Assembly (NCBI GenBank): GCA_965178125.1
Contig: OZ237744.1
Coordinates: 1,302,001-1,364,732, forward strand
Reading direction: 5' to 3'
DNA length: 62,732 nt
DNA from: Bilabrum cf. latius
Lineage: Eukaryota
The notes beneath the pieces are model-generated. The model was given only the letters and a program-made list of their open reading frames with translations, searched no databases and was not told the DNA's origin. This document shows, piece by piece, positions 6,309-61,235 of this stretch; the stretch's first letter is position 1; each line of letters begins with the position of its first letter. The position numbers were made by a program, and so were the translations under genes.

Positions 6309-8681
6309 TCACAGGTGTGCCCCCCCACGTTTAGGGCTGTCCCTGGATGGCACACCATCGGGGAGCAGAGAGTCAATGATAGGGGGGACTGCAGCGGGCA
6401 AGTGCCGCCAGGGCCACTGGCTCCACTCTGTCGCCGTCCCGTCCGTGTCTCTGCTGCTGCCCCCGCCCGCCCGATCCACCTCGATCCTTTGCAGGGCCTC
6501 AAGCGCCGCCCTCTCCCCTGTCAGCATGGCCCCGTGCACCGTCATTGGCGAGTCCCACAGCTCAAAGGCACCCGATGTGGCCTCGCCAGCGAACAGCAAG
6601 CGCCCGTCCCAGGCCGGTCTCGCCAGCGCGCGCCGCATGGCCAGCCCGGCGCTCACGTGCACCCCGCCACCTCCATCTGCATCTGGCCCCGGGCTCATCC
6701 CACCACGGGGAAGGTCCGGCCGAGGCACGACCCTGGCGCACTCGATCCGATCCAGCGGGTGGGCCCTCGTGTATCCCCCGAGCACGTGGGGGTGCGCGTG
6801 CACCGCACCGGAGCCCCGCAGCAGCTCCTCTGGTCCCCACGCCACCACTGCTCCGCCCATGAAGCAGTCCACTGCATCTGCCCATGCATCCTCCGAGTGC
6901 TCGTCGCCGCCACTGGTGCGACTTGCAGGGAACATGCGGGAAAGCTGGCTAGCGGCCCGGGCGAGGACGAGGGAGGCGTGCTGGGCAAGCACTGCCTCTG
7001 CGCGCTCACCCATGGCGAATCCAACCGCGATCCATTCTCCCTTCTGATCCGATCCAGCGGCTCCTTCCTCGGGGGATGAGGCAGCAGCACCCACTGACTG
7101 ACTCCGACTCCGAGCCCCAGCCCCAGCCCCAGCCCCAGCCCCAGCCCCGGCAATGGCTCCGAGCGCCCTAAGCCCCAGCTCGGACAGCACCGCCCCCCGC
7201 GCGCTGCCTTCAGGGCCCTGCACCTGGCAGCCGCCGTCCACCAACGAGGTCCGGCCCAAACCCAGGCTAGCCTCTTCACCCCCTGGTTCGCTGGCTCCTG
7301 CCCCTGCCTGTGCCCCTGCCTTGGCCACAGGCGAGTCCTTGGCTTCGACCGACAACTGATGATCCCTGTCCCCGGGCCCCCCATCCGGAGACCGGAACCA
7401 GAACTCGGCGATTGGAGCAGCATCCATCGCCGCGCTCACCCTCAGCCGGCCCTCAGCAGTCCGTCTCTCTGGGGGGGCAGGGGCGGCTGCCACGCTGCCG
7501 TGGCAATCGAGGGGCCAAGCGCGAGCACTGAATCGGAGGAGGACTTTCACCGCTGGTTGCAGGTTGAGCGCACCTGCGACTTGAATCTTGGTAGCTGGCA
7601 GGGGAGGGGAGAAACTGATGGGTCGCGGTACCTTGCTCGACTCAGTGCCGTTGCCATTGGTAGTAATCGACTCCGGGGGAGCTGCATGCACCACCACTCT
7701 GGCCCGGACCTCTGTTGGCCCTACGCTATCACCAGCCCGCATCACTTTCAGAGCTATATGTGCACCGTCTCTGCCCTAGTCCCTGCCGACAGGCAGCAGC
7801 CGAATCTCGCTCACCACGCACCCCGTCCACACCTCCGTCCCATCGGCAAGCGCTCGCACTACAGCCCCCATGCCGCCCTCGCAGCGACTGTCTCCCTCCA
7901 CCGCATCGCCCCCAAGCTCCCACATGCGAGATATCGCCGCGCTGGCTCTCAGCCCGGCGCGCCTCCCCGAGGCACCGCACGTGTTGGCGAACCCCGCGCA
8001 CAGCATTGCCTCCCCCGCTGGGCCCAGGCCTTGGGAGCAGGCCCACGTGCCCAGGGTGCGGCCGTCCGACTCTAACAGGGGCCGGCGGAACACCGTCCCC
8101 ACAGGGGCTGTGGCTCGCTTCCTTGCGCAATACGCCGCCAGGCTGCTCTCCTCCTGAGCGAGCGGGGCGGCCACGTCTGCCAGGGCCCACGCAGCTTCGA
8201 ATCCGCGGTCGATCTGCTTGTAAGGGTCGTCCAGAGGACCCCCAGGGCTGGCAAAGTTGAAGGATTTGCTGCTCCCAACCACCTCGGTGTGCCTCCTGAA
8301 CGGGGTGGCTGCTCCACCGTTCGGCGATGCGTCAGTGAGCGAGCCGTAGTAGCCCGCACCATCCTCCCTGTCATCATCGGGTCCGCCATCTCCTGGAGAC
8401 CAGGTAAACAGGGACCGTCTTGTAGCTTTGGCCGCATCGGCCAAATATCGCAGCAAAGATCTCTCCCCGTGGATGAACTCGGCGCCGACGTCCAGTTTTG
8501 GGGAATTGGACCATAATGCGCCGGTATCGGAGGCGCAAAGGCGACCTCCTGCTCGCTCCGACGCTTCTAGCACAAGAACTCGGAGTGATCTAGTTGTTGA
8601 AGCGGAATTCAAACACTTCGCGCACCACATCCCGGCAGCACCTGCCCCAACAATGACAACATCAAAATAAGTATCCGCCAT
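6309..8681 (-). CDS. Flavin-containing amine oxidase (one in-frame TAG at 7776-7778)
   Basis: N-terminal DVVIVGAGAAG...LEASERAGGR and GAEFIHG; C-terminal GRLLFAGEAT...TVHGAMLTGERAA. The two track ORFs share a frame and are separated only by TAG. TGA stop. Confidence 0.85.
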
Positions 8682-8958
8682 TGCCTAGATGTACCGTCCG
8701 GTTTCCAGGCCAGTTCTCAGGTGTGTCTATGAAAACAGGTTAATTGTTCGGTGAAGGATCGACTTAATCCGTGTATGGGTCCCTTTTTGGGTCGGTTTCG
8801 CTTGAAACACTTGCCCCGAGAAATCCGTGCAGTTGCGACTCCGAATTGTCGAGGCGGTTCAAAATTTTCCAGCATTCTGGGCAAGAGCAGCTTAGTCTTT
8901 GGGTGTTTCTACCCGTTGAGGTGCTTTAGTTCATGTTGCGTGCCTAAATACAGACGAA

Positions 8959-11900
8959 ATGAGCTACGTGAGGAGTTTTTCTTTACGTCCAGCCAAGGTA
9001 TGGATCGGCCACCCAACGACCAAGTAGCCACTTTTCCCTATCTAAGCGCAGGGAGGATTCGGAGATCAGCATGATGATTCATATGATGATAGTTTTGGCC
9101 ATTAGTATGGCGATACCTAGTCATCCAGGCTCGATGGATATCGGCCTGTTGAGTCCGAACCGTATGATGCCGCTTTCCATGAATCCCAAGGCGCATTGGC
9201 CGGCGGAAACATGTACGATTTCGATCTAAGCACCAGCAGTAAGGGAAAAAAGAAATCTAAGAAGTCAAAAAAATCGAAGAAGCGCCGAAGTAGGCGGAGT
9301 TCTGCAGGAGATGGGGTGCAGCAGACTCGGGCAGCGATTGACGCCTGGCGCGAGCGACGTAGGAAACAGGAGGAGGAAGAAGCAGCAAAAGCTTCCGCCC
9401 CGAAATCTGACACACAAGCCACTGTATCAGATAGCCAAGCTCCCAAACGTGCTGCAGGCGGTGATGAATTCCGCGGGCGAGCGCAGTCTGCCAGCGCCGC
9501 CCTGGACTCTGACTCGGACTCGCTGGACGGGCTGATCGACAGCGAGGACCTGGACGACTCGGGGGCGGCGCAGAAGCGCTTGCTGGAAGCTAGAGAGAAT
9601 GCCCGCTCGAAGGCGCGGGCAGCGGTGGCCTCTCGCCATTCGCAGGCCTCGCGGTCTAGTTCTGTCTCGGGCGCCGGAGAGCGAGGCAGCGTGGCTGCGG
9701 TCACGGGAGTGGCTGCCAGCTTGGAAGGAGAGGGGGAGGGGGAAGGGGAGGGACAGGATACAGAGGGGGGGCGTGATGGAGAGGGTGGTTCCCTGGGAGC
9801 CCATGGGAGCATGGTCTCCGCTGACATCCATCGCGTGGACAGCGGGCCCAACGCGCCTCTTCGAAGGGCACCCAACTCTGAGGCTGAGGGCGGCGAGGGG
9901 GGAGATGAGGAGGAGGAAGACGTAACACAGAGACAGGGTGCGGGCGGATTCCTCTCGAGACCCACAGCTGAGCCAGCGAAACCAGGGGATGATATCCACC
10001 TGGACGAGACCCCGCCTCCCGGGGGAGGCAGCAGAGGCGACCGGCCAGCACACTCGACTCAAATAAGAGCTGGTGCAGGCGCAGTCGCAGGCACCTCCTT
10101 GACTGGCCCTAAGTCGCCTTCAGCCCAAGCCATGAGCAGTTTCGCTGCATTCAGAGACTTCTTGAAGGCCCCCGTGGCTGCACCGCAGGAGGTAGAGATT
10201 CCCGATGCAGAAGGTGGAGGCTCTCCTTCTCTCGAGGCTCCCGATGCAGCGGCTCAGACTGCAGGTGCTGGGGCCGGCGAGAGTGCATCGAGAGAAGGAG
10301 AGTACACAGATGTGGACAAGGCGGATGAAGATGATCGCAGCGAGGCGATTGATGCGTCTTCTCTGCGGCAGTCAGATGACCTGCCCCCGCCGCCTCCCCC
10401 ACCTGCGGACGAGCACGCCGGGAGTGTACCTGTCTCAGGTGCCGGTGCCGGTGCCGGTGCTGCTGCGGGCTCGTCTTCCTCTTCTGCAGCTACGAGCTCC
10501 CCTCTCCCCTCTACAGATGCTGTGAGTAAATCAGCGCAGCTGGAGGCAGATGCAGAACCCGGCCATGAGGCAGCCGGGGACTCCAGCTCGTCGGAAGCTC
10601 GACCGCACGCAGCAGCAAGCACCTCGTTCGGTGGGCAGCCATTGGACGTTCAATCGACGCAAGACGAGCAGCAGGAGGAGTACGACTCGTACTCAGAGCC
10701 ATCGGGGGATGAGCACAGCAGCGAGCCGCAGGGGCCAAAGCCTGGCTCAGCAGGAATTCATGGTGTGGATACTCCCGACAGCAGCGAGCAGCCTCGAGGA
10801 GGCGGAGACCATGAGCCTGGCCTGCAGGCCGATAGATCTCGTCCTGCGGCACCCAAGCAAGACGGCCCCCCGCCTGGGGCTGCCCACCTGCAGCCTCAGC
10901 CGCCCGCGCGCCCCAATCCTCATGTCGCAGAGGCACAGGCGGACACCAGCCCAGGCTCAGCTGCAAGTGACGAAGGCAGTCGAAGCGAGACCCAGGACCA
11001 GCCCACAGTGGCCGACTCCAAGACAGTGCTGAACGAAGCAGCAGCTGAAAGGGGCCAACCCGGCCAGGATAGCCCTGTGGAGACGACCCCCCGAGGTGTG
11101 GATGAAGCACCATAGCATGCCACCAACGGCAGGGACAGGGACAGGGGCAGGGACAGGGACAGGGCCCCGTCGGCCCCCCAAGATGAAGACGACAGCTTCG
11201 TAGTGCGCGCCGCCACCGCTGCACTGGTCCGCTCCCTGCAAGCGGCCCAGCTCCTCTCCTCGTCCAGGGAGGGCAGCATGCTCGGGTCCAGCGCGGCTAC
11301 CGCACGGGTGGCTCAGGACGAGGAGCCTCCTCCCCCGCCGCCTCCCCAGGATGGTGGTGGTGAGTCAATGGCGTGGGGATCAGCGCACAGCCGGTTTGGG
11401 CCTCAGGGCCAGAGCCAGAGCCGCCACGCGCAGCCGAGCCAGGGTCGAGCCCGGGGATCGAGACCCCCGCGGGTCCCCGTCACAGCACAAGCACGGTCCT
11501 CTGTGGAGATGACCAGGGCTCTGCTGAAGAGGCTCCAGCGGGCCGACGATGAAGCGGAGGCGCGCACGGCACCGCCGAGGGAAGCGAACGGACGCGCAGG
11601 CGGTGGCTCTAGCGGGGGTGAACATCGGCGTGCCACCCGTGGAGGGGCGGGGCACGCGCGAATGTCGCAGAAGTCGCTGCCGTCAAAGTCTCGAGTGCTT
11701 CGCGCGAGACGTCAAGGGGACCAGAGCCGTGCCAAGGGAGGGAAGATGAGGCCAGGCGCAGCAAGGGGCGCACGAAGCGCTGGCAAGGGCACAGGGACTC
11801 GCCTTAGTCTCACGGAGGAGGACCCTGATGTGGATGGGTTCGACAACAGCTCGTCACATGGCGGGGTCTCTGACGAGGACTGGGAGGGCCTGGTGCAAGC

Positions 11901-13492
11901 CAACTTGAGCCGAGTGAGCGAGGCAGAGACTGAGGCTGAGGAGGCGAGGGTGAGGGAGGGGCGCGAGCGGCTGAGGCGGCGCACGCTCGAGGCCAAGCTG
12001 CGCGGGGCCGAGTCCAGAGAGGACGTGCTGCGGCATCGGGTGGTCGAGCTGGAGTCCTCGCTGGCGGCGGGACTTACGGGCAGCGGGGGTCACAGCGGTG
12101 TCTCCGGCTTGGAGTCCATGCTGGATCAATCGGATGGAATTCGCGCTTTGGATCAGGCCCAGCGACAGCCTGCACCTGTTGCCCAGCAACAACCTGCATC
12201 CGCTGAGCAGCATCAACCGCGGTCGGCGCAACAGCAAAGGCAGTCAATACCATCCGAGCCAGCTGCTGAAACCACGCGTCCAACGCCTCTGGACGCACGA
12301 GGCCTCGCCCGGCACTTGGCCCCGCTGGTACGCTCCGATGTGCAGCGCGCCCTCTCGGCCAGCGGGCAAGGTGCTTCCCCTGACCTGCACAGAGCCGGAG
12401 TACCCCTGGATCCATCGTCCCGCATGGCCTCTATCCTGCGGCCCATGAGCGCCGTGCGGGCCCTCGAGGGGGAGCTGCACCTGCAGGCCACGCTCGTAAG
12501 GAGCATCGGACAGACATCCAGAGATGCATCCGGCGGGACGAAGCCAGGCGATCTAGATGCGGGTGAGCGCCGAGGGGGGGCCGCCACGGGCACGCAGCTG
12601 AGGTAGCGGCTGGCCGTAGACAAGGCCCACCGCGCCGAGGTGGACAAGTTGCAGGGCGAGGTGGAACAGCTCCGCAAGCAGCTGGAAGCGGAGCGGGCAA
12701 TCCCGCGTGATGCCCGCGCCCACCCCGACAGCACGGCTCCCAGGGGTGACGACTTGGCAGCGGCGGACGAAGAGCGCCGCGCCGCTCTGCGTCTGCCCCA
12801 GTCTGCTGACCGCGCCTCGCACCGTGGGCCCCAGGACGCGCTGGAGGAGCAGGCGGCCAGGGCGCCGCAGGGCTCTCTGCCCCGCAGGCTGCTCCTGCGG
12901 CTGCTACGTGAGAGAGAGGATGCCGCGGCGGCGGCAGCGGCAGCCGAGCGACGCATCGATTTCCTCGCGGAGCAGGAGCCCGAGCCGGGGACAGGGGCAG
13001 GTCGAGCTGAAAGCCGCCAGCAGCCCCCGCTGGGTGGTCCAGATGGAGCAGACGTGCCCGCAGCGTCTCATCGAAAACGGCTGCGTGCGGCAGACGAGGA
13101 GCTGAAGCAGCTGCGGGAGCAGGTAAGGCGGCTAGAGCGCGAGAGGCGCAAAGGGGAGGCCAGCGCCAGGACCCCCGGGCAGAAGCGAGAAGCGGCCCTG
13201 TCCAAGGCCCGGCGGGAGGCGGAGGCAGCGAGGGGCAAGGCGCGGGAGGCGGAGAAGAGAGCCAAGGAGGCAGAGGAGGAGGCTGAGCGGAGGGTGCGTG
13301 AAGCGAGGGCGCAGGCAGAGCGAGCGCGCGTGACCCTCCGCAAGCGGGATAACGACTTGCGAGCCCGGCTAGCAGCAGCTGAGGCGAAGGAGGTTGAGGC
13401 CTTGGAGGCCAAAGAGGCGAAGGAGGCAGAGCTGGCCGAGGCGCAGGTGGCACTGCGAGAGTTGAAGCTGAAGCGGAGCCAGAGGGGCCGGC

Positions 13493-13526
<34 letters not shown>

Positions 13527-14421
13527 CCAGGACCAGGAGCAAGGCGAGCAGGGGCAGGGCAGTGAAGTGCCTCTCCACAGCGCGGGCCATGATGAGGATA
13601 GCGAGGATAGCGAGGACGGTGGGGGCGATGTCGTTGGTGATGATGTCGCTGCCTCTACCGATCCTGCCGCTGTCCCAAGTTCAGCGGGCTCTGGACTGGA
13701 CTCGACTCTGCACGAAGGAAAAGTGGGGGCATCCAGTGGCAGCACCCACGCTTCTAAAGTGCAGAGTCACGAAGAGGCAGCAAGGGGCGAGGCTGCGCAG
13801 ATCTAGGCTGCAGCCCCTCGAGACCGAGAGGGAGGGCGCATCCGCTCCCTCGAGGCTGTGGCAGCCCGCCTGGCGCAGGCCCTGGAGCAAGAGCGGCGCC
13901 GGGCCGAGCACTGGCGGGCCCGGAGCATGCAGCCCCCGCCCCCTGCCAGCGAGCGGGAGGCCGCGCTGCGGGCGCAGCTGGCTTCTCTAGGCGCGGCAGT
14001 GGGCGGGCTGGAGGCTCGGCTGTCAGAGAGAGAGGCGGCGCTTGCAAGGGCGGAGGGAGCCGCGAGGCAGCTGAGTCTGCTGGAGGCCAGCGCGGTGCAG
14101 GGGGAGAGGGAGAGGGAGAGGGGCAGTGCGCTAGGAGGGTATGGAGAGGAGTCGGGGCTGTCGCAATACTCGTGGGGTGGCCGGGGTGGGGACAAGGACA
14201 CGGCGCGGGCACGGGGTCCCTCCGTCCGTCGGGATGGGGTGTTATCAGTGTCACCAGTGGAGAAGGTCCTGGAGAGTAGGACCGACGAGGTGCAGGCGCT
14301 GCGAGAGGCCCTGGAGCGGAAGGATGGCATGTTGAAGAGGCTCAAAGGGCAGGTGGAGCGCATGGGCTAGCGGCTGAGAGGCATCGCAGAGGCAGCGCGG
14401 CGTCAGACCAGCAGCCAGTGA
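8959..14421 (+). CDS. About 1800-aa low-complexity/coiled-coil protein of unknown function; probable intron 8998-9051; 6 in-frame TAG
   Basis: Track ORFs 9196, 11203, 12640 and 13858 share a frame and are separated only by TAG (11113, 12604, 13804, 14368; also 9103, 9118). First TGA at 14419. E/R/A-rich heptads. Confidence 0.7.
13495..13523 (+). repeat. (CAG)n coding poly-Gln tract
   Basis: About 9 consecutive CAG codons. Confidence 0.9.
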
Positions 14422-14512
14422 GCCTGCACGGTAATACCGGAACAGAAAAATTTGGGCCGGACGTGTTGTGATGACCAAGCAAATTTTCTTCGCTAAGTTT
14501 GCCCTGCAGGGC

Positions 14513-20387: not shown

Positions 20388-20538
20388 TGAGTCAGCGTAG
20401 TGCTTTGCATTCGATATACATCTTTAAACGATGCAAGTGCCAAACAATCAAAAGGATGGGGATTGCGTGTTTGATTCCGGACACTGTGGCACTCCCGTTT
20501 GGCAGCCTTGCTTGTCCGTTCGTTTGGACAGGAAATCT

Positions 20539-34785: not shown

Positions 34786-34817
<32 letters not shown>

Positions 34818-49681: not shown

Positions 49682-50383
49682 ATGGCGTCCATACCTGGAA
49701 CTCGTTTAAAGTCTGTCATATCCTCTGTGGCCAGGAGGATGGCCCCTAAGTATGCTCTAGGTTTAATGTAAGTCATGCACCAAGTACCTCCTCAGACTAC
49801 CAGCCTATTCCTGCAAAACCCTGTGTTCTAAGTGTATTTCCCACCCCATGTATGTCATTCATGCAGGTTCAAACACACAGTGCCAGTCGTTTTGGTGCAG
49901 CAGGTTGATGAGCTTGGGCACAGGGGGATGTAGCTCGACGTCGCTGCAGGCTTTGCAAGAAATCACCTCTTTCCCAAGAAACTAGCCGTGTATGCCACCG
50001 ATGATCACATACAGAAATTTTCTGTCGAGCTTTCTCCGGAACAGTTTGAACGAAACGCTGCTCTGAGACGGAAGCGGCAGCTGCGATAGCAGGCTGCAAA
50101 GGCAAAGCTCGACTTCGGCCAAGCCACAGAGGACGGACAGAAGCTGTATGGCAGAGTGGCTTCGCAGGATTTTTCCGAAGCGCTGTACAAAGTAACGGGG
50201 CTGCGTGTTCAATCTGACAAGTTTGAGATCCTTTGGGACGAAAGTCGACCGGACGGCATTGAAGAGGCAACCGAGCGTGAGGAGCCCGGGGAATCCATAA
50301 CGAGGACAGGATCTTACGTCTTGCGCGTGGAGATAGAGGACGGCCTCTTTGTTAAGATACCGGCAGGCGTACGGTCCGTGTGA
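49682..50383 (+). CDS. MRPL9: Mitochondrial ribosomal protein bL9; intron 49768-49866; 2 in-frame TAG
   Basis: VVLVQQVDELGHRGM[TAG]LDVAAGFARNHLFPKKLAVYAT and GQKLYGRV. Ends TGA, immediately followed by TAA. Confidence 0.8.
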
Positions 50384-50496: not shown

Positions 50497-51657
50497 TCAT
50501 AGCGCGGGCTCCTCGCCAAACGGATTTCCCATGCTATCATCCGTCTAATCTGCAGGAGGGCTGCTCGGTGCTGCTTGTGCCATCGCCGCAGTGACGGGGT
50601 TCACCGTGGAGCTCCCAGCGGCACCGCGCCCCTGCGCTGCCTCGTAGTCCTGCCCCCCCCCCTCTGCGAAGGGGTGCTCCTCATTGTTTGCCGTGGGTGG
50701 TGTTCCGGTTGGTGGAAACGGTGCCGATGGGGCGGCTGCTCCGCCCGCAGACGAGGCCATTGAGCTGGGCATACCGACCTGCTGCCCCACCCCCGCGCCT
50801 GCGCCAGGCACTGCCCCACCTGTCGCCACAGCGTGCGCCAGGGCCGCGTCTTGCGCCGCCCTCTCCGCCTCGCCTTCGTCGTGATACACGTACGACAATC
50901 CAGCCAGCACGCCAGACAGAATGGTGCTGAGGACCGCCAGGATGAACCCCCCTCGGAAGCCGGCGCGCTTGAAGTCCAGGCCGCTAGCTAGCTGCGCGCT
51001 CAGCTCGTCCTTGTCCAGGCTTGAATTTACCACCCCAGCATAGGAGGCCCACCCTAGCAGCATGCAAAAAGCGATTCCACCGAATAGAGCAGGAGCTGCT
51101 TCACGCACGCGCAGGTATGCAAGGGGCTCAGGGATGTCGTAGTACAACCGGCCCCGGCGACGCACGAACGACACAAATGCGGCGAAAGCACCCATGAGCG
51201 TAGCGAGAAAAGTGAACGCGAACGCGACGCCACCAGCCCTACGGAAGTAGTCAAGTTTCTTACGCACGACGACAAGCTGTATCGAGCTGCATTGAACGCC
51301 ATCCAAGTCATCCGTTCGCTTTCTTCCATCCTCAAAAGTGCAGACTTCAGCCGTCAAGGGCAGGAACTGCCCGACTTGATGTGCTTTCTGCGAACCAGTG
51401 TTGAAATCTTTGGTTCTAAACCCCCACCAAGGAGTCCACGCAGCAATGATCAGGAACAGCAGCAAGAAAATAGCGCCAACCAAAATCCCACTTTGTGCTG
51501 GTTTATTTCGAAAGCCTTGCACCCCTACTGCGATCGCAGATTGCAGCGGATTTGAAGCCTCTGTTGGCTACTATGCAGCTGGTGGCGCAGCTTTCCCTGG
51601 CTGGCCATCAGGCACACGTGCACCTGGCACTGCTTGGTGTGCAGTGATTGCAGGCAT
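50497..51657 (-). CDS. Four-TM claudin/PMP22-like membrane protein; 3 in-frame TAG
   Basis: Four hydrophobic segments, TPWW after TM1, two Cys in loop 1, GGFILAV before TM4, acidic tail with NPF. TGA at 50497. Confidence 0.6.
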
Positions 51658-51742
51658 CAATTGAAGTCAACTCCGGGTTTAGACCAAATCTTCCCCCTTG
51701 TGGTAAGCCTATCGGGCAATTATATTGTAATAACTGGGTTCA

Positions 51743-52535: not shown

Positions 52536-54196
52536 TCACTTCTCCTCCAGCTCCAGGTCGAACTCTTTGCCCGTCACACGCTTGTAGACCTCGAGGGCAT
52601 CGCTCATGGTGCTCTCAAAGTGAGAGGTGGCATCGTACGAGGTCGTAAGGTAGCACTTGTCCTCGGCGCCATCCGAGACGGGCTCGTAGTACGGCACCCG
52701 GTTGTGGAACTTGCACACCATCTTGCCGAGCAGCTCGAGGGCAGGCTCGACCTCCTTCTCGGGCTCCTTGGTCTCTGCCCTGGTGCTCACGATCGCCAGG
52801 TACTTGCCCTTGGGCACCACCTTGTGCTGCGAAGATAGGATGGAGATATACACGTCGTTGCTGCGACCCAGCTGCTTCTGCGGCAGGATGATCTGCGCCG
52901 ACTCGGTCTTGTCGAACTCGGTGATGCACGAGGGTTTCTGCGCCAGGATGCAGATGGTCCGAATGATCTCTCCGTTGGCCTTGCGCTTGTCCTCGGGGAA
53001 GTACGTGGGGTCTCCAATCACGGCCTTGGCAGTCGCCGCGCACCCGTCCTCGTCCACGATCCCCACGGCCACGCCCTTGTCGTCGCTAATCACCTCCTGG
53101 AACTTGCACCTGAGCATGAACACGCCGCCCGCCAGAGCCGCGTACCTGCTGAAGCTCTCAGGCAGCGCCGAGAGGCCGTACTCGGGGTACAGGAAGGGGC
53201 ATCCCCCGAAGGCCTGGAGCGATTCGGCGTACAGCCTGATCTCCTTGATCGTGTTCACGGCCGGCTGTCCCTTGTACGAGTCCTCCGTCTGCAGCGCCAT
53301 GGCGTGCCCCACGAAGTCCTGCGTGTCCTCGCTGAGCCCGTACTCCTTGTACAGCTCGCCCATGGTCATCTTGGTCAGGTCGCGGCCCTTGCCGTCCTGG
53401 GCCTTGTCCACGTCGCACTTGGAGCAGTAGACGAGAAAGTTGCGCAGGGCATTCTTCTCGAAGGTGCCCACCAGCCCCGTCGAGATCGCCTCCGTCTCCG
53501 TGGCGGGGACCTTGTCGATCCCGGGCGCACCGGACGTGAAAATCCCCTTCCCCTTCGTGCGCGTAAAAACGAAGCTGCCATGCACCTTGTAGAAGTCGAT
53601 GTAGGCTTGAGTGTTGGTCTTGCGCAGCAGCTTGACCAGCTTTCCCTTGGCCATCACGAACTTTGGGATCAGGTCCACGCAGAAGGAGTTGTCGCGGCCC
53701 ATCGCAGACACATACTTTTCCGGTGGCTTCTCGTCCTTGATAAACTTCCGGTACAGCTACTGCGAGAGAGGTGCGTAGAAACACAACCAACCGGCGCGAG
53801 AGAGAGTGTGGCACAAAAACTCAGGCAGGCGCGAGCATGGCGCGCGATGCTTCCTTGCTCACCGAAGCACTAAGGGAAGAAGTCTGTCCCCCGTAGAAAT
53901 CATTTCGATCGACAACCAGAACCTGCGCGAGAAATGGACACCGCAGCGAGATAAGATGGTACCTGGTTGCGTATGGCGTTGGTGGCTCCCCCCCTCGTCC
54001 GCCATGGGCTCACCTTTTGCTTGTCGTGGGTGAGCAGACCAGATAGAATGCACTCCTTGAGTCCAGTTCCACACACAATGTAGTCGTACTGACCGTCAGC
54101 TAGAGGCGGGTACTCCTTGTCACCGATCTTCACGGGAGCTGGCCCCTTCGGCGCCTCGCTGTCTGCAGGTGCTCCAGATCCTTCTACTCCTGCCAT
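52536..54196 (-). CDS. GDI1: Rab GDP-dissociation inhibitor; introns 53923-54013 and 53760-53862
   Basis: YDYIVCGTGLKECILSGLL, VDRNDFYGG, [TAG]LYRKF, VDLIPKF, SYDATSHFE. TGA stop. Confidence 0.93.
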
Positions 54197-54383
54197 TATG
54201 CGCGGGATGTATAGTCAGAGGGATTCAAACGACCTATCCAGACGAGGATAACGTGAAGCGTGGCCTGGAAATCGCTTGGCGTCGCGCGCGGTGGTTGTAA
54301 CCTCTACGCGATATCTGAGGAAGAAGACAATAAGTGTCCAGTCGGTTGACGGCCAGTTCAAACGAATCTAGCAGACCCAAGTG

Positions 54384-54956
54384 ATGGCAGCCGCTGGCCG
54401 ACCAGACATCGGTAAGCTTATTGGAGATACTCTTCTGAGCACACTGCAAGGCGAGGAGGAGAAACTTGATGCTGAGATCGCCGACTTGGACCGCAAGAAA
54501 GAAGAGGACGAGCTTGAATCGATTCGAAGAAAGAGATTAGAGCAGATGCGAAAGGTCGCGAAACAGAAAGAAGCGTGGCGTCGGGCAGGTCATGGCGCAT
54601 ACAACGAGATCACGGACCAGAAGACTTTCTTTGACGAACTAAAGGGAAGCAAGCGAGCGGTGGTGCACTTTTACCGACCGTCTGCCTGGCGTTGCGACGT
54701 CCTTCACAAGCATTTGGGAGCCTTGGCAACTCGTCATATTGAGACCAAATTTGTCAGAATCAATGCAGAGAAGGCTCCCTTTCTGTGTGAACGGTTGAAG
54801 ATTTGGATGATCCCCTCGATGGTTCTCGTGAAGGAAGGCAAGACTGAGCATACCATCCAGGGCTTTGATGAGCTCGGTGGGGACAAGGTGACAGGGAAGC
54901 AGCTAGAGGACGTACTACTGGCCCATGAAATGCTTCTGGAGGCGTACTGCCAATGA
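54384..54956 (+). CDS. TXNDC9: Phosducin-like protein 3 / TXNDC9
   Basis: ELESIRRKRLEQM, GHGAYNEI, VVHFY, HIETKFVRINAEKAPFLCERL, GFDELGG. TGA stop. Confidence 0.88.
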   Translation: MAAAGRPDIGKLIGDTLLSTLQGEEEKLDAEIADLDRKKEEDELESIRRKRLEQMRKVAKQKEAWRRAGHGAYNEITDQKTFFDELKGSKRAVVHFYRPSAWRCDVLHKHLGALATRHIETKFVRINAEKAPFLCERLKIWMIPSMVLVKEGKTEHTIQGFDELGGDKVTGKQLEDVLLAHEMLLEAYCQ

Positions 54957-55668: not shown

Positions 55669-57968
55669 ATGATTAACCCTAATGTCCAGATGCAGCCGTA
55701 GATTATTTTGCTGAAGGATGGTACTGATACAAGCCAGGGGCGGGGATAGCTCGTGTCGAACATCAATGCTTGCCAGGCGGTAGCCGAGGCTGTTCGAACT
55801 ACTTTGGGACCCCGCGGCATGGACAAGCTCATCCATGCCGGAGATAGAGTGAGGTTTAGCTAAGACTTCATAGATTTTTGCGATGAGATGCACGCCATAT
55901 GCTTTGCCCTCCTTCCGTGAGCTTGTACTTGCACTCCCTATTGGATTCAACTTCGCAGGTAACTATCAGCAACGACGGTGCGGAGATCATGGGCCTGCTC
56001 GATATTGTGCACCCTGCTGCTAAGGTTCTCGTTGATATTGCCAGGGCGTAGGATGCCGAGATCGGAGATGGCACCACAACTTGCGTGCTGCTTGCCGGCG
56101 AGCTGCTGCTCGAGGCCAAGCGATTCATCGAGGAAGGAGTGCACTCGCAGGTAATCATCAAGGTAAGTGCGACAAAAAGTATCATTATAGTCTGTGTGCC
56201 TTGTGCAATTAGCTGCCATACGAACAAATGCGCATGTCCACGGTGTTTCGCCTCGCAGGGGTACCGCTTGGCTGTCCAGCACGCCCTTGACGTGGTTCGG
56301 CAGCTTGCCCTCGGCATCGAGGATGCCGCTGCGTACAAGAGTGACGGCCCTGCTGCATCAGCTTCTGCCGCTGCGCCTGCTCCTCAGGCCGCCACTGCAC
56401 CTGCCGCTGCGTCGGGTGCTGGCTCCTCGGTGGTTCCCGCTGGCAAGTCCACCGGGGCGCGCCGCGCTTTGCTCGAGAAATGCGCCAAGACTGCGCTCAA
56501 CTCTAAGTTGATTTCCAGGTATCAGGACTTCTTCGCCCCCATGATAGTGGACGCCATCGAGTGCCTGGGCGAGGACCTGGACCTCTCCATGATCGGCATC
56601 AAGAAGGTGGCCGGCGGGTCCGTCACAGACTCGTTCCTCGTGGATGGTGTGGCGTTCAGGCGGACCTTCTCGTATGCTGGTTTCGAGCAGCAGCCCAAGC
56701 GTTTCGCCGAGCCGAAGATCCTGCTGCTCAACCTGGAGCTGGAGCTAAAGTCGGAGCGGGAGAACGCCGAGGTGCGGATCGAGGACCCTACCAAGTACCA
56801 ATCCATCGTGGATGCCGAGTGGGAGATCATCTACGACAAGCTCCGCAAGTGCGTCGAGTCTGGGGCCAACGTGATCCTGTCCAAGCAGCCGATCGGGGAC
56901 CTCGCCACACAATACTTCGCAGACAGGGACGTATTTTGCGCCGGGCGCGTGCCGCACGGGGACATGCAGCGCATCGCCAAGGCCACTGGTGCCAGGGTGC
57001 AGACCACTGTGCGCGGGCTGGCGGACGATGCGTGGGTGCTGGGCAAGTGCGAGGTCTTCGAGGAGAAGCAGGTGGGCGCGGAGAGGTACAACATCTTCCG
57101 GGGGTGCCCCGAGGCAATGACCGCCACCATGGTGCTGCGAGGAGGAGCGGAGCAGTTCATCGCCGAAACGGCGCGCTCCGTGCACGACGCCCTGATGATC
57201 ACCAAGAACTGCGTGCGGTCCTCCAAGATTGTGGGCGGCGGCGGTGCCATCGAGATGGAGGTATCGAGGCGGTTGCGCGACATGGCCCTGTCCATCGAGG
57301 GCAAGCTGCAGCTCGTGGTGCTGGCATTCGCGAGGGCCCTCGAGGTCATCCCCAGGCAGATCTCGGGGAACGCTGGCTTCGACGCGACGGACATCTTGAA
57401 CCAGTTGAGGCACAGCCACGCGGGCCATGCCGGACCCATGCCGGGGGTGGCCGCCAGCGGGAGTGATGCGCGATTTTCGGCGGCCCCCGCGCTGGTGGAG
57501 GCTGCTGCGGCTGGTCGCATGGCCACGATGCCGTCAGCGACTGCCTCCACGGCCGGCGGCTCTGGGGCCTCCGAGAGCAAGGAGAGCGAGGAGGAGCGGG
57601 CCATCTCCAAGGGGGGTGCGCAGGGGACTAGCAAGCCTTCCTCCATGGTATGGGCCGGCGTGGACATCAACCTCGAGGGGGTCTGCGACACGGTCGAGTC
57701 TGGGGTGTGGGAGCCGGCGGCCAGCAAGGTGTCGAGCTTCCAGGCCGCCTGCGAGGCTGCCTGTCTGGTGCTGTCCATCGATGAGACTGTGCGCAACCCG
57801 AGGTCCGAGGGGGCCCCTCAGATGGGCGGGCCTGGCATGGGGGGAGGCGCGGGGATCGGCCGCGGCAAGCCGATGAGTGCTGCCATGGGCGGCGCAGGAA
57901 TGCGGGGCATGATGGGAGGCGCGGGCGGCAGGGGCATCCGCGCATTCCAGGGCAAGGGTGGCAAGTGA
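55669..57968 (+). CDS. CCT7: T-complex protein 1 subunit eta; introns 55849-55958 and 56163-56258; TAG at 55699, 55747, 56049
   Basis: MQP[TAG][15 protein letters not shown][TAG][23 protein letters not shown][TAG][24 protein letters not shown] stop. Confidence 0.95.
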
Positions 57969-58135: not shown

Positions 58136-59542
58136 TCACGCCGACAGTGCGTCTGCCCCCCACCGCCGCTGTGCAAACCTGTGGACTGCAATCGCGCGCG
58201 ACGACCTGATGTCTTCTTGCAGCTGTCGCTAAACCACGGCGTGGACCACCGCGGCGATCATGAACAGAACAGCGCGGGCGCCGGTCGCCGCTCGGAAAGC
58301 CGACACGCGATCGAGTGCTTCAGTTGACTGCGACGCTGCCGCATTCGACTGCACCTCTGCGGCAGACTACCCGCTGGCTGCTGAAACGAGGCTCTCCGCT
58401 GGACCAGTGAGCAGCGTGGCCAGGTGGCCCCCGATCAGCAGAAGCAGCACGCTCAGCCGGGCCGCCTGCAGACCCGTGGATGCGGGAGCCACGAAAGCAC
58501 TGGCAGGGGCTGGGAGCGCGAGCTCGCTGTCAGCAGGGTCCACGGATCTGCCCTGCGCCATGGCCGCCTGCCTCCTGTCGAATGCCTCCTGCGCCACGGG
58601 GAGCGAGCCGGCCGTGCGCAGCGAGGCCGCCAGCGGGCGGGAGCACAGGCCCATGCTGTGCGCCGCGCCCAGGATGCAAATGGACGCCAGGGTCACGATC
58701 ACGGTTCGGGCCGTCCCACTGAACAGAGCACTGGTGCTGATGAAGGCGGCATCGCTGGCCTCCCTGGCAGACACGAGCGCAAGGGCTAGTGCGAACCCAG
58801 CCAGCACAGCAGTGCCCAGGTCTGTGGCGCCCAGCAGTGCCGCCTCGATGCCCATGGACCAGGGCATGCGAAGAGGGCGCCCAAGCACGTCCATGGGGGT
58901 CGCGCCCTCGCCTCCTACCCGAGGGGGCGGCGGGGGAGGCCGGGGCTTGGGCGCTGGCTCCTGCGCCCTCCCACCACGCACGCGCACGAACTTTCCCGTG
59001 GCTGCCATTTCTGCGAACAGTGCTTCCCCTTGACCTTCCCAAAACCCAGCTCCGGCCTGATTTCCAGCATTGCCGGAAGCCGTGCCGGACCCGTCACCGG
59101 CCCGACCTGCAGTTCCAGGTGCAGACGCACCAGCCGCATGCCCAAGGCTTGGGCCGAACCCATGAGAGGCGGTCCACGTCACAGCAGCTGTGCCCCTGGC
59201 ACCTGGATCCATGCTTGACGAAGCAGCTGCCCTTTGGGAGCTGAGTGTCGCCCCTTGCGGTGGCATCGCCGATGAAGCAGTCAACACCAGCGACTGCCCC
59301 CGGCTACTGGACGCGAAAGAAGATGCATCGGTCTACCCAGGAAGAGCTGGTAGATTAAACGACCCATCCACTTGATGATACGGTTTGCCGTCGAAACGAA
59401 TCGAACCCCCCAGGGGATCAGCAGAGCTGGAACCCATGGCCTCTGCCTGCAGTCCAGACTACGCGGTGGATGCCAAAACATCTGAGGCCTCAACCACCAA
59501 CCTAGGGGCTGCTACTCTGCTGCTACTTAAACTCGAACTCAT
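58136..59542 (-). CDS. Hypothetical multi-pass membrane protein; about 4 in-frame TAG
   Basis: Track ORF 58367-59287 extends both ways through TAG only, to ATG 59542 and TGA 58136. Several hydrophobic segments. Confidence 0.5.
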
Positions 59543-59677
59543 CACGGTCACAGTCTCCAAGCGATCACTTGTGTGGTGCCCAATGGTTCTATCGAAATCC
59601 AACGGAAGGCATTTGTGTGTGATGAGTGTAATCGCATTTCACGTTGTGTGCAAATCAGTGCAATTTATATCGCCCAC

Positions 59678-61235
59678 ATGTCCGCTAGCACTATACCTAC
59701 CCTCATACATACATTAAAAGGTCATGTGGGGTCGATTGAAACGGTCCGGGTCTCACCAGGTGCTGACCAGGTGGCTACAGGGGGAGCCGATGGCAGACTC
59801 CTTGTGTTCCATATTAATGGCCCAAGCAAGGGCCGAGCCTTCAAGTACTCTGGCCATACCGGACCAATCCATGATGTGAAGTTTTCGCCAGGTGGCGATG
59901 TGGTTGCTTCAGCTTCAGCAGATCGTACTATTCGAATATGGAAGAATTCTGTGTGAGTCTGCGTTTGAACCTTTGGGCTACCACCGCCCAATGCTAGTCG
60001 CAATCACGCCGTTTAACCCAACAATACGCTTTGAAGTAAATTGACTTATTCCATTTATCATGCAGCCGGGGTGACTACGTATCAATCAAAGCACACTCAG
60101 GGGCTGTGCGTGGGCTGCACTGGTCGTGGGATGGAGCTCACCTCCTGAGTTGCTCAGACGACAAGTCCGTCAAATTGTGGGCGCTACCTTCAAGGCGCTT
60201 CTAGTGTTCATTTCTTGGTCACACGAACTGGGTGCGCTCGGCGGCGTTCAACCACGACTCGACAAGTATTGCTAGCGGCTCGGATGACACGAACGTTCGA
60301 ATCTTTGATGTGGCCACGTAGAAGTGCTCATAGGTTTTGCGGGAGCATGCAACGTGAGCAATGCGCAGTTAAGCATGTACTGTTAGGTTTCACTGCAAGG
60401 AAAAGACGTCTCTTAGACCCTAACTCTCCTTCTCCACTGCAGCCCTGTGTCCCACGTGGGCTTCCACCCAGACGGCTCCATTGTGGCTGCCAGTGCGGCA
60501 GACGGGTCTCTCAAGCTATGGGATGTCCGGGACAAGGCCCTATTGTAGCACTATGATGCCCACCAGGGAGCGTGCAGGCAGTTTCAATTCCACCCGAGCG
60601 GCAACTTTATCCTCTCCTCGGGAGACGACGGCGCCGCCCGGATCTGGGACCTGCGAGAGGGGCAGCTGCTCTGCGGGTTGCGAGGGCATGTCGGAAGTGT
60701 GAACTCGTGCTGCTTCTCTCCTGATGGGTCACTCGCTAGCACAGCTGGCGAAGATGGGTTGGGTATGGTGTGGGATGTCCACCGCCAGCTGGAGGGACGA
60801 CCACTCAAGGCGACATCGCGACCTGCTGGGGTCAAGCACCGGCATAGTGGTGAATCGAGTCCAGATCTTGCCCCAAGAGCTGATGACGCAGGCTCAGGCG
60901 ATGACTTAGGCAAATGCGAGGGCAAAAGTGCGATGCCAGGTGCGTCAGCAGCAGCTGGCGGTGCGGGTGATGAAGAAGCTGCTCTCGCTGCCCCTGAAGC
61001 AGGAGCACGCTTCGGCCTTGCCGAAGGCACTACTGCAGGGGTGGTGCATCAAGGTGCGCGTGTGATCTCCGATGATGCAGTGTCTGACAGCTAGAAAGAC
61101 CTTGGGGGGCGCATCCTGCAGGAGCTCTCCGGGATCCATGAGACACTAGCCAGGCTTGAGGCCAGACTGACACACTCCGAGGACAGGCTTGGCGCTGTCG
61201 AGCAGGCCATGCAGGCCCGCGGTGCTCTTTCATGA
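59678..61235 (+). CDS. POC1: POC1 centriolar WD40 protein; introns 59953-60065 and 60354-60442; 5 in-frame TAG
   Basis: WD40 repeats with RAFKYSGH, SDDKSVKLW, GHTNWVRSA, LL[TAG]HYDAH, FHPSGNFI, IWDLREG. C-terminal coil LEARLTHSEDRL lies beyond TAG 61092. TGA at 61233. Confidence 0.88.

What the first reader, a model, noticed from the sequence alone, without database searches (positions are those of the whole stretch)
6309..61235. Non-canonical nuclear genetic code: UAG encodes glutamine
Seen: about 100 in-frame TAGs (hand count) interrupt about 25 of 30 otherwise intact genes, including housekeeping ones (CCT7, DRG, PIG-L, POC1, bL9, WDR74). Reading through them always keeps the frame and restores missing conserved domains. 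Established knowledge: the family residue is Gln at CCT7 55699 (QPQII), 55747 (QLVSNINAC) and 56049 (QDAExGDGTT), POC1 60546 (LLQHY), P450 31848 (ALQFG as in CYP7A1), ASPH about 26223 (AQPWW) and DRG 30832 (PQ). The TAGs occur in varied sequence contexts, which argues against a motif-specific base-calling error. Inference: genome-wide UAG-to-Gln reassignment. Nuclear UAG=Gln without UAA is rare; I recall it for the fornicate Iotanema and some ciliates. I do not know it from a GC-rich, stramenopile-like flagellate, so this may be an independent origin.
Basis: partly seen in the sequence, partly recalled or inferred. Interest (0 to 1): 0.97.

Follow-up and report, generated by a model that had tools for sequence, protein, structure and literature searches.

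The report
UAG read as glutamine, nuclear genes
In this GC-rich protist chromosome end, most genes carry in-frame TAG codons that stay in the spliced mRNA and sit where related proteins have glutamine, so the organism very probably reads UAG as glutamine and stops at UGA, rarely UAA.

Summary
In 28 gene models (17,479 codons) I count 100 in-frame TAG, 0 in-frame TAA and 0 in-frame TGA. 24 of the 28 genes carry at least one TAG. 26 genes end in TGA, 2 in TAA and none in TAG.

The TAGs are not assembly errors, edited sites or introns. Contigs from three runs of two other studies carry 12 intron-like joins (11 GT..AG). Over 20 kb they differ from the window at one base, which is not a TAG. 30 of the 32 TAG sites in that stretch lie inside the listed pieces.

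A small codon-versus-column test on three genes recovered 57 of 59 sense codons. It assigns TAG to Gln with log-odds +12.5; the next best residue scores -11.9. The strongest columns are ASPH 26184 (Q in 37 of 41), CCT7 56049 (Q in 24 of 27) and orf1010 41001 (Q in 9 of 12).

TAA is not a sense codon here. About 32 in-frame TAA would be expected if it followed the CAA:CAG ratio, and none is seen.

The same code (UAG=Gln with UAA still a stop) is already published for Iotanema, Protocruzia and some phyllopharyngean ciliates. The lineage here looks stramenopile-like, and six literature searches found no such report. The tRNA-Gln(CUA) and eRF1 could not be examined because no whole genome is held.

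The parts
373..2364 (+). DnaK-type HSP70 gene. 0 TAG among 35 CAG Gln codons. GC3 0.87. Stop TGA.
   Evidence: Pfam HSP70 E 8.9e-266; codon counts; ends read.
2595..4166 (-). Armadillo/HEAT repeat gene. 0 TAG. Stop TGA.
   Evidence: Pfam Arm.
4687..6174 (+). Protein kinase gene. 0 TAG. Stop TGA.
   Evidence: Pfam Pkinase.
6309..8858 (-). Flavin amine oxidase gene. 1 TAG inside the CDS (7778). Two further TAGs lie upstream of the first Met and are not counted. Stop TGA.
   Evidence: Pfam Amino_oxidase.
9046..14421 (+). Long low-complexity/coiled-coil ORF (1791 codons). TAG at 11113, 12604, 13804, 14368. Stop TGA.
   Evidence: (no Pfam match).
14435..16903 (+). CTLH-domain gene. 9 TAG (14552, 14726, 15053, 15254, 15470, 15575, 15866, 15917, 16028). 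Stop TGA.
   Evidence: Pfam CTLH.
16935..20423 (-). ORF of 1162 codons with no Pfam match. 6 TAG (20219, 19895, 18905, 18737, 18728, 18521). Stop TGA.
20539..21780 (-). ORF of 413 codons. 3 TAG (21696, 21498, 21231). Stop TGA.
21852..25766 (-). CHAT / AAA_16 domain gene. 13 TAG (25667, 25490, 25214, 25175, 24401, 24197, 24101, 24023, 23531, 23189, 23000, 22985, 22841). Stop TGA.
   Evidence: Pfam CHAT.
25977..27401 (+). Aspartyl/asparaginyl beta-hydroxylase-like gene. 10 TAG (26007, 26184, 26223, 26244, 26472, 26625, 26655, 26826, 26880, 27345). Stop TAA.
   Evidence: Pfam Asp_Arg_Hydrox; 48 homologues found; column residues: 26184 has Q in 37 of 41, 26223 has Q 11 / K 10 / R 8, 26625 has H 36 / Q 5.
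27241..30177 (+). CDD/CDA-like deaminase gene. 4 TAG (27430, 28045, 28051, 29350). The true start is uncertain. Stop TGA.
   Evidence: Pfam LmjF365940-deam.
30316..31516 (-). DRG GTPase gene. Inferred exon 1 at 31516-31478, inferred GT..AG intron at 31477-31381, exon 2 at 31380-30316. TAG at 30834 and 30819. Stop TGA at the same C-terminal position as yeast Rbg1.
   Evidence: Pfam MMR_HSR1, MMR_HSR1_Xtn and TGS; PDB alignment across both TAGs; exon 1 read. No reads were laid on this intron.
31332..33809 (+). Cytochrome P450 gene, closest to CYP7/CYP8. 6 TAG (31848, 32061, 32361, 32364, 32685, 32874). Stop TGA.
   Evidence: Pfam p450; PDB alignments: at 31848 CYP7A1 has Q, while CYP8B1 has A and the two prostacyclin synthases have E and D.
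34431..36683 (-). TAG at 35144 and 34457. Stop TGA.
   Evidence: Pfam WD40-type matches.
36909..38210 (-). ORF of 433 codons. 1 TAG (37958). Stop TGA. A 442-codon ORF overlaps it on the + strand, and which of the two is the gene was not settled.
38327..40600 (+). ORF of 757 codons. 5 TAG after the first Met (38702, 38996, 39506, 39521, 39653). Stop TGA.
40870..43776 (-). Conserved gene with no Pfam family; best named relative is from Cafeteria roenbergensis. 8 TAG (43767, 43704, 43290, 42594, 42393, 41832, 41226, 41001). Stop TGA.
   Evidence: 16 homologues; columns: 41001 has Q in 9 of 12, 43704 has E 9 / Q 3. An X5 contig covers 41301-43789 with 0 differences.
44228..45214 (-). PIG-L (GlcNAc-PI de-N-acetylase) gene. 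TAG at 44605 and 44326. Stop TGA.
   Evidence: Pfam PIG-L; X6 and X7 contigs cover it.
45311..46357 (+). NifU-like gene a. Introns at 45369-45455, 45566-45669 and 45802-45892. TAG at 45350. Stop TAA at 46355-46357; contigs run on to 46406-46452.
   Evidence: Joints; model. The family name comes from reading the translation and was not tested with Pfam.
46596..48575 (+). ORF of 659 codons with no Pfam match. TAG at 46683, 46926, 47058. Stop TGA. Transcript contigs span 46636-48663.
48654..49558 (-). NifU-like gene b. Intron at 49281-49366. TAG at 49528 and 48668. Stop TGA.
   Evidence: The family name was not tested with Pfam.
49739..50383 (+). Ribosomal protein bL9 gene. Intron at 49768-49866. 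TAG at 49931 and 50087. Stop TGA.
   Evidence: PDB matches to L9/bL9m; joints; model.
50497..51666 (-). ORF of 389 codons that reads as a membrane protein. TAG at 51573, 51570, 50547. Stop TGA.
52536..54196 (-). Rab GDP-dissociation inhibitor gene. Introns at 53760-53862 and 53921-54011. 1 TAG (53759, first codon of the last exon). Stop TGA.
   Evidence: Pfam GDI E 1.5e-135; joints; model.
54252..54956 (+). Thioredoxin/phosducin-like gene. 0 TAG after the first Met. Stop TGA.
   Evidence: Pfam.
55690..57968 (+). CCT7 (TCP-1 eta) gene. Introns at 55849-55958 and 56161-56256. TAG at 55699, 55747, 56049. Stop TGA.
   Evidence: Pfam Cpn60_TCP1; PDB alignments show Q at 56049 in yeast and mammal and Q at 55747 in mammal; representative alignment; spliced contigs.
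58136..59638 (-). ORF of 500 codons. TAG at 59461, 59335, 58369, 58231. Stop TGA.
   Evidence: An X5 contig covers 56257-59571 with 0 differences.
59678..61235 (+). POC1-like WD40 gene. Introns at 59953-60065 and 60354-60442. TAG at 60202, 60319, 60331, 60546, 61092. Stop TGA.
   Evidence: Pfam WD40; the PDB list includes a POC1 homologue; joints; model.

Best explanation
The nuclear translation system of this organism reads UAG as glutamine. UGA is the usual terminator and UAA a rare one. This is the code that NCBI lists as table 15.

Shown here:
- In-frame TAGs lie inside homology-supported, spliced and expressed genes.
- The TAGs are unchanged in transcript contigs.
- The aligned columns of relatives fit Gln and no other residue.
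- TAA and TGA never occur in frame.

Inferred from what is established for other UAG=Gln lineages, not tested here:
- A tRNA-Gln with anticodon CUA, most simply one base change away from tRNA-Gln(CUG), decodes UAG without reading UAA.
- eRF1 has lost or weakened its recognition of UAG.
- Sense TAGs then accumulate, mostly from CAG by C-to-T change. They now make up 12.6% of Gln-type codons, and fewer in GC3-rich genes, which are probably highly expressed.
For: 1. Counts. There are 100 in-frame TAG, 0 TAA and 0 TGA in 28 gene models of 17,479 codons. 24 of 28 genes carry a TAG. Terminators are TGA 26, TAA 2, TAG 0. Single genes hold up to 13 TAGs, which leaky read-through could not sustain.

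2. Homology across TAGs. The DRG alignment to yeast Rbg1 runs over residues 31-385 with two TAGs inside and ends at the shared C-terminus, followed by TGA. Pfam domains span TAGs in ASPH, DRG, CHAT, P450 and CCT7.

3. Transcripts. On 41301-61300, contigs of runs X5, X6 and X7 (two studies other than that of X1) carry 12 joins. Eleven have GT..AG ends (CT..AC for minus-strand genes); one is a non-canonical GA..CT join inside GDI. They include both CCT7 introns, both GDI introns and both POC1 introns. X1 has none of these joins. The only base difference is 43237 G>A in X6. 30 of the 32 TAG sites in the stretch lie inside listed pieces.

4. Residue. The column test on ASPH (41 homologues), orf1010 (14) and CCT7 (29) recovers the standard meaning of 57 of the 59 sense codons that have 5 or more columns. 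For TAG, over 15 columns, it gives Q +12.5, with C -11.9 and S -14.0 next. True Gln codons score CAG +4.7 and CAA +5.3.

5. Single columns. ASPH 26184 has Q in 37 of 41. CCT7 56049 has Q in 24 of 27, and Q in yeast and mammalian CCT7. CCT7 55747 has Q in mammalian CCT7. orf1010 41001 has Q in 9 of 12. P450 31848 aligns to Q in CYP7A1.

6. TAA. If TAA were used in proportion to CAA:CAG (167:526), about 32 in-frame TAA would be expected. None is seen.
Against: - Q is the commonest residue, or tied for commonest, in only 6 of the 15 TAG columns used. The other 9 have E, S/P, H (36 against 5 Q), G, W, A, E, A and P on top. Most of these are weakly conserved columns or doubtful tail alignments.
- The DRG sites align to L and N in yeast Rbg1. 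bL9 49931 aligns to V in the L9 chains shown in the alignments.
- The three genes at 373-6174 have no TAG among 74 CAG/CAA codons. At the overall share of 12.6%, that is unlikely by chance (my arithmetic: about 5e-5).
- The ORFs were defined as free of TAA and TGA, so the zero counts for those codons, and 'TAG never terminates', are partly built in.
- The kind of runs X5-X7 is not on record. The tool marks X5 'probably DNA'. That they are transcripts is my inference from the joins.
- There is no tRNA gene in the window. No genome is held. So neither tRNA-Gln(CUA) nor eRF1 was seen, and there is no protein-level evidence.
- The sample is a single 62.7-kb window.
Confidence: 0.88

Rival explanations
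1. Both UAA and UAG encode Gln, as in the ciliate/Hexamita code (table 6). In-frame TAA is missing only because the genome is GC-rich.
For: 26 of 28 genes end in TGA. The two TAA 'stops' are followed by short open stretches, 21 codons after ASPH and about 9 after NifU-like gene a, so reading through them cannot be excluded from the sequence alone.
Against: There are 0 in-frame TAA in 17,479 codons, against about 32 expected from the CAA:CAG ratio. TAA occurs at 3.7 per 1000 in the other frames of the same genes. Allowing TAA as sense extends no gene body. It only extends stretches upstream of the first Met in 8 of 25 ORFs.
Confidence: 0.04
2. UAG is ambiguous. It is Gln inside genes but still a terminator near the 3' ends of some genes, as with the context-dependent codes of Condylostoma or Blastocrithidia.
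For: It cannot be excluded, because my ORFs read through every TAG by construction. ASPH has a TAG 18 codons before its TAA, in a tail that aligns to nothing.
Against: DRG ends at its homologue's C-terminus and GDI ends within a few residues of the end of its Pfam model; both then have TGA. HSP70 also ends in TGA. No gene needs TAG as its stop.
Confidence: 0.05
3. UAG encodes a residue other than Gln, such as Glu, Lys, Leu, Ser or Tyr, as in other UAG reassignments.
For: Some TAG columns are dominated by E (orf1010 43704: 9 of 12), H (ASPH 26625: 36 of 41) or K/R (ASPH 26223: 18 of 41).
Against: In the log-odds over 15 columns, Q scores +12.5 and every other residue scores -11.9 or lower. The same test recovers 57 of 59 sense codons. 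Near-invariant Q columns carry TAG.
Confidence: 0.02
4. The TAGs are not translated: they reflect pseudogenes, base-calling or assembly errors, RNA editing of UAG to CAG, or unrecognised introns.
For: None found. X1-X4 may be the window's own sample and so may not be independent.
Against: Contigs from two other studies are identical at 30 of 32 TAG sites and carry spliced forms. No T>C difference is listed. 24 of 28 genes are affected, including DRG, CCT7, GDI and bL9. The reading frame is always kept. TAGs lie inside exons bounded by observed joins.
Confidence: 0.01

Closest known systems
Iotanema spirale (Fornicata) nuclear code: UAG=Gln, UAA and UGA are stops (PMC5304391; abstract and passages read)
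   Same: Only UAG is reassigned, and to Gln. In-frame UAGs are frequent (204 in 126 genes there; 100 in 28 here). UAG is never the terminator. UAA is kept as a stop.
   Different: Iotanema terminates mainly at UAA (104 UAA against 15 UGA), whereas here the ratio is 26 TGA to 2 TAA. It is a metamonad, whereas this organism groups with an oomycete in a CCT7 tree. Its eRF1 has a T32G change, and the eRF1 here was not seen.
Ciliates with UAG=Gln only: Protocruzia tuzeti and two phyllopharyngean lineages (PMC11687900; passages read)
   Same: The same formal code (NCBI table 15), with UAG decoupled from UAA.
   Different: A different supergroup. This window shows ordinary introns, and the (TTAGGG)n array is not what I recall of ciliate macronuclear ends (recalled, not tested).
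UAR=Gln codes (table 6): many ciliates, Hexamita, Streblomastix, ulvophytes, Amoeboaphelidium (listed in PMC11687900)
   Same: A stop codon reassigned to Gln. A tRNA-Gln one base away from a normal Gln anticodon is the presumed route.
   Different: UAA is also Gln in those codes. Here there is no in-frame TAA in 17,479 codons, so that defining feature is not met.
UAG-only reassignments to other residues: rhizarian exLh (Leu), Scotinosphaera (Ser), some phyllopharyngeans (Leu) (PMC11687900 and PMC5304391 passages)
   Same: UAG changes meaning while UAA stays a stop.
   Different: The residue differs. The columns here fit Gln, not Leu or Ser.
Phage 'code 15' (TAG=Gln) in crAss-like and Lak phages (seen in search listing and abstracts only)
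   Same: The same codon table.
   Different: These are viral genomes in bacteria that use the standard code. This is a eukaryotic nuclear genome with spliceosomal introns.

Membership tests
UAG=Gln nuclear code with UAA and UGA as stops (NCBI table 15 type) | In-frame UAG inside conserved, otherwise intact genes | tested here: met
   100 TAG in 28 gene models; 24 of 28 genes carry one. Pfam and PDB alignments span them.
UAG=Gln nuclear code with UAA and UGA as stops (NCBI table 15 type) | UAG positions correspond to Gln in homologues | tested here: met
   Q +12.5 against -11.9 or lower for all other residues, over 15 columns. The control recovers 57 of 59 sense codons. Q is on top, or tied for top, in 6 of the 15 columns.
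UAG=Gln nuclear code with UAA and UGA as stops (NCBI table 15 type) | UAG is present in the mature mRNA (not edited, not spliced out) | tested here: met
   30 of 32 sites lie in spliced contig pieces with no difference. The run kind is not on record; their transcript origin is inferred from 12 joins.
UAG=Gln nuclear code with UAA and UGA as stops (NCBI table 15 type) | UAA and UGA are not sense codons | tested here: met
   0 in-frame TAA or TGA in 17,479 codons. About 32 TAA would be expected if TAA were used like CAA. The sample is one window, and the ORF definition is partly circular.
UAG=Gln nuclear code with UAA and UGA as stops (NCBI table 15 type) | UAG is never used as a terminator | tested here: inconclusive
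   0 of 28 genes end in TAG, but the ORFs read through TAG by construction. Conserved C-termini support it for DRG and GDI only.
UAG=Gln nuclear code with UAA and UGA as stops (NCBI table 15 type) | A cognate tRNA-Gln(CUA) gene | not testable with these tools
   No tRNA in the window (ARAGORN; Rfam). No whole genome is held.
UAG=Gln nuclear code with UAA and UGA as stops (NCBI table 15 type) | eRF1 altered in its stop-codon recognition motifs | not testable with these tools
   eRF1 is not in the window, and no genome is held.
UAG=Gln nuclear code with UAA and UGA as stops (NCBI table 15 type) | Gln found at UAG positions in peptides | not testable with these tools
   No proteomic data are available here.
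UAR=Gln code (table 6) | UAA is also translated as Gln | tested here: not met
   No in-frame TAA. Two genes end in TAA.
Context-dependent (ambiguous) stop codes | The same codon is sense inside genes and a stop at gene ends | tested here: inconclusive
   No gene requires TAG as its stop. Sequence alone cannot exclude it.

The most novel reading that the evidence does not exclude
This is the first nuclear stop-codon reassignment in a stramenopile-affiliated protist. It would be a further independent origin of the rare UAG-only-to-Gln code, arising in a GC-rich genome where UGA has become almost the sole terminator (26 of 28 genes) and UAA is nearly unused without having been reassigned. That state could be an intermediate in which UAA is free to be captured next. 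It would make the supposed coupling of UAA and UAG directly testable in what appears to be a cultured organism with DNA runs and apparent transcriptome runs (their kind is not on record).
Probability: 0.5. Interest if true: 0.85.

Novelty: new member of a known kind. Interest (0 to 1): 0.78.

Why it matters
Nuclear code changes are rare. Cases in which UAG changes meaning while UAA does not are rarer still. The passages read name only Iotanema, Protocruzia and two phyllopharyngean lineages for Gln, plus a few cases for Leu or Ser.

A further origin in an unrelated, GC-rich lineage would add a data point on how eRF1 and tRNA-Gln co-evolve, and on whether UAA and UAG are truly coupled.

There is also a practical consequence. 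Any annotation of this genome under the standard code will truncate or split most genes (24 of 28 here). Proteins predicted that way in public databases will be fragments. That may be why no close relative appeared in the protein searches.

Tried and rejected
- Whole genome: none is held for this window. A genome-wide test and searches for tRNA-Gln(CUA) and eRF1 were therefore impossible.
- tRNA and other RNA families in the window: ARAGORN found 0 and Rfam found 0.
- ORF-length comparison between codes does not discriminate. Making TGA a sense codon also yields many long ORFs in this GC-rich DNA (85 ORFs of 300 or more codons, against 57 for TAG sense). I dropped it as evidence.
- The look-up of sequencing runs: no RNA holder is listed. 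The kind of X5-X7 is a guess by the tool.
- P450 homologue search found only 2 proteins. I used PDB alignments instead.
- One search was run without alignments and gave no residue information. It was repeated.
- The DRG and bL9 PDB alignments were uninformative, because those columns are variable.
- In the representative search for CCT7, many of the 150 hits are fragments or mis-predicted. 61 of length 480-700 were aligned, and the 29 with at least 35% identity to the window protein were used.
- The metagenome scan with the ASPH protein found no close relative. Its 2 loci had 29% identity, and 48% identity over 33 residues. So nothing can be said about whether relatives share the code.
- Six literature searches found no report of a nuclear UAG reassignment in stramenopiles. 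The one 'TAG to glutamine' hit in a 2026 annotation preprint concerned Tetrahymena. Supplements were not seen. Papers outside the held library cannot be excluded.
- Names of closest homologues gave no near relative. The best named hits were Phytophthora (CCT7), Cafeteria (orf1010) and oomycetes (ASPH).

Full report
**What the window is.** The 62,732-base window is 57-66% G+C. It is densely packed with eukaryotic nuclear genes on both strands. Sixteen ORFs have Pfam matches: HSP70, Arm, Pkinase, Amino_oxidase, CTLH, CHAT/AAA_16, Asp_Arg_Hydrox, LmjF365940-type deaminase, DRG (MMR_HSR1, MMR_HSR1_Xtn, TGS), p450, two WD40 proteins, PIG-L, GDI, Thioredoxin/Phosducin and Cpn60_TCP1. Introns are short (86-113 bases) and have GT..AG ends. 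The window ends in a 106-copy (TTAGGG) array followed by another repeat.

**The observation.** Under the standard code no ORF exceeds 664 codons. With TAG read through, ORFs of 1791, 1304, 1162 and 1010 codons appear. That comparison alone is weak, because making TGA sense also lengthens ORFs in GC-rich DNA. I therefore built 28 gene models. 22 are unspliced ORFs counted from their first ATG. 6 are spliced according to observed joints. Together they hold 17,479 codons with 100 in-frame TAG, 526 CAG and 167 CAA. 24 of the 28 models have at least one TAG; HSP70, the Arm protein, the kinase and the thioredoxin-like gene have none.

In the coding frame, TAG occurs 5.7 times per 1000 codons, nearly as often as in the other two sense-strand frames (7.0). 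TAA and TGA are absent in frame, against 3.7 and 16-20 per 1000 off frame. This last contrast is partly built in, since the ORFs were delimited by TAA and TGA. The independent support is that homology runs across TAGs. The DRG protein aligns to yeast Rbg1 from residue 31 to its last residue, with two TAGs inside. Pfam domains also span TAGs in ASPH, DRG, CHAT, P450 and CCT7.

**Not an artefact, not editing, not introns.** One search found 24 runs sharing words with 52500-61300, 7 of them holding at least half of its words. I laid X1 (which holds all of it and is possibly the window's own sample) and X5, X6 and X7 (two other studies) on 41301-61300. X1 is collinear with the window and has no joints. 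X5-X7 carry 12 joints. Eleven have GT..AG ends (CT..AC for minus-strand genes); one is a non-canonical GA..CT join inside GDI. They include the two CCT7 introns, two GDI introns, two POC1 introns, three in a NifU-like gene, and one each in a second NifU-like gene and in bL9. Splicing at these joints restores uninterrupted CCT7, GDI, POC1 and bL9 proteins.

The kind of these runs is not on record, and the tool marks X5 'probably DNA'. That the contigs derive from spliced mRNA is my inference from the joints. Across the 20 kb the only listed base difference is 43237 G>A in X6. 30 of the 32 TAG sites of this stretch lie within the listed pieces or joint flanks. The other two (48668, 61092) are not in listed pieces, and 109 pieces were not shown. 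So UAG is kept in the transcripts, and the TAGs are confirmed by data from other studies.

**Which amino acid.** Queries were translated with X at TAG so that they could not bias the search.
- ASPH gave 48 homologues, of which I aligned the best 41.
- orf1010 gave 16 homologues, of which I aligned 14.
- CCT7 exon 3 gave 150 representatives. 61 of length 480-700 were aligned to the spliced protein, and the 29 with at least 35% identity were used.

For every codon I summed log-odds over the columns in which at least 60% of rows have a residue. The pseudocount was 2, and the background frequencies were recalled from memory. The standard meaning was recovered for 57 of the 59 sense codons that have 5 or more columns; ATA and ATT narrowly went to Val. 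TAG, with 15 of its 21 sites passing the filter, scored Q +12.5, C -11.9 and S -14.0. This is more Gln-like than CAG (+4.7) or CAA (+5.3).

Columns that support Gln:
- ASPH 26184: Q in 37 of 41.
- CCT7 56049: Q in 24 of 27, and Q in yeast and mammalian CCT7 structures.
- CCT7 55747: Q in mammalian CCT7, and in 5 of 9 non-gap close homologues.
- orf1010 41001: Q in 9 of 12.
- P450 31848: Q in CYP7A1, but A, E and D in CYP8B1 and the two prostacyclin synthases.

Columns that do not show Gln:
- In 9 of the 15 columns another residue is commonest, for example H 36 / Q 5 at ASPH 26625 and E 9 / Q 3 at orf1010 43704.
- CCT7 55699 is mostly Pro.
- The DRG sites are L and N in yeast Rbg1.
- bL9 49931 is V in the L9 chains shown in the alignments.

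These are variable columns and do not favour any other single residue.

**UAA and UGA.** 26 models end in TGA and 2 in TAA. The two are ASPH, and NifU-like gene a at 46355-46357, where contigs run on for another 50-95 bases. If TAA were a Gln codon used in the CAA:CAG proportion, about 32 in-frame TAA would be expected, and none is seen. Allowing TAA as sense extends no gene body. It only extends stretches upstream of the first Met in 8 of 25 ORFs, plus 21 codons after ASPH. UAG is never needed as a terminator, but my ORFs could not show it. DRG ends at its homologue's C-terminus and GDI ends at the end of its Pfam model; both then have TGA.

**Uneven use.** TAG makes up 12.6% of Gln-type codons overall. 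It is rare or absent in the GC3-rich genes: HSP70 0 TAG to 35 CAG/CAA, Arm 0 to 24, kinase 0 to 15, GDI 1 to 15, CCT7 3 to 24. It is common in GC3-poorer genes: ASPH 10 TAG to 10 CAG/CAA, CTLH 9 to 36, CHAT 13 to 56. A plausible reading, which is inference only, is that UAG is decoded less efficiently and is avoided where expression is high.

**Lineage.** Best named relatives are Cafeteria roenbergensis for orf1010 (43% identity), oomycetes and a haptophyte for ASPH, and Phytophthora cinnamomi for CCT7 (69% identity over the matched part). A 15-row CCT7 tree puts the window with Phytophthora and two unnamed sequences (support 95/93), apart from fungi, animals, a plant and a red alga. This is one gene with sparse sampling. 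It is consistent with a stramenopile affinity and does not prove it.

**Comparison with what is known.** Passages of PMC11687900 state that UAG-only reassignment to Gln is known from Iotanema spirale, Protocruzia tuzeti and two phyllopharyngean lineages. They also give UAG-only to Leu or Ser in a rhizarian, Scotinosphaera and some ciliates. UAR=Gln is listed for many ciliates, Hexamita, Streblomastix, ulvophytes and Amoeboaphelidium. PMC5304391 (abstract and passages) reports 204 in-frame UAG in 126 Iotanema genes, with terminators UAA 104 and UGA 15, an eRF1 T32G change, and the proposal that tRNA-Gln(CUA) arises from tRNA-Gln(CUG).

The present case has the same codon table but the opposite terminator preference (TGA 26, TAA 2), and it comes from a different part of the tree. 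Six searches of the held library found no nuclear UAG reassignment in stramenopiles. Supplements and papers outside the library were not seen.

**Mechanism and limits.** What is shown: UAG is a sense codon in mRNA, and its columns fit Gln. What is inferred: a tRNA-Gln(CUA), a modified eRF1, and the origin of sense TAGs mainly from CAG. None of these could be examined. The claim 'genome-wide' extrapolates from 28 genes in one window. Reads were laid on only 32 of the 100 TAG sites.

**Verdict.** This is a real and well-supported non-canonical nuclear code, UAG=Gln with UGA (and rarely UAA) as stops. The code variant itself is known. Its occurrence in this lineage appears to be new.

Noticed in passing
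61445-62732: A 55-base repeat (2.7 copies, 61445-61595) is followed by a perfect (TTAGGG) array of 106 copies (61597-62233). After that the sequence continues with a 155-base tandem repeat (2.8 copies, 62294-62732) to the window end. The array is in the orientation of a right chromosome end, yet it is not terminal in the window. It could be an interstitial telomere array, a subtelomeric structure or an assembly join.
   Followed up: partly
46529-46571: A stretch of about 40 bases lies between the 3' end of NifU-like gene a and the start of orf659. All runs' contigs break or branch there. Several unrelated X1 contigs share it, and summed depth in that bin is 244 against about 20-25 elsewhere. 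It therefore looks like a short repeat dispersed in the genome. Only one copy is in the window.
   Followed up: partly
373-6174: The three leftmost genes (DnaK-type HSP70, Arm-repeat protein, kinase) have no TAG at all and the highest GC3 (0.79-0.87). Avoidance of TAG in highly expressed genes is my guess. No reads were laid here.
   Followed up: partly
45311-46357 (+) and 48654-49558 (-): Two NifU-like paralogues flank orf659 in opposite orientation within 4.3 kb. The family name comes from reading the translations and was not tested with Pfam.
   Followed up: no
52869-53519: Inside the GDI gene, contigs of X5 and X7 show a 608-base non-canonical join (52889 to 53498, ends GA..CT, only 21 letters on the shorter side) and loose ends at 52869 and 53519. 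This may reflect a second GDI-like copy or an assembly chimera in those runs.
   Followed up: no
36546-38210: Two long ORFs overlap on opposite strands: 36546-37871 on + (442 codons, 0 TAG) and 36912-38210 on - (433 codons, 1 TAG). Neither has a Pfam match for the strand I tested (-). Which of them is the gene is open.
   Followed up: no
43237: The single base difference in 20 kb between the window and other runs is G>A in one X6 contig of depth 3.1. It lies inside orf1010 and is probably an allele or an error.
   Followed up: no
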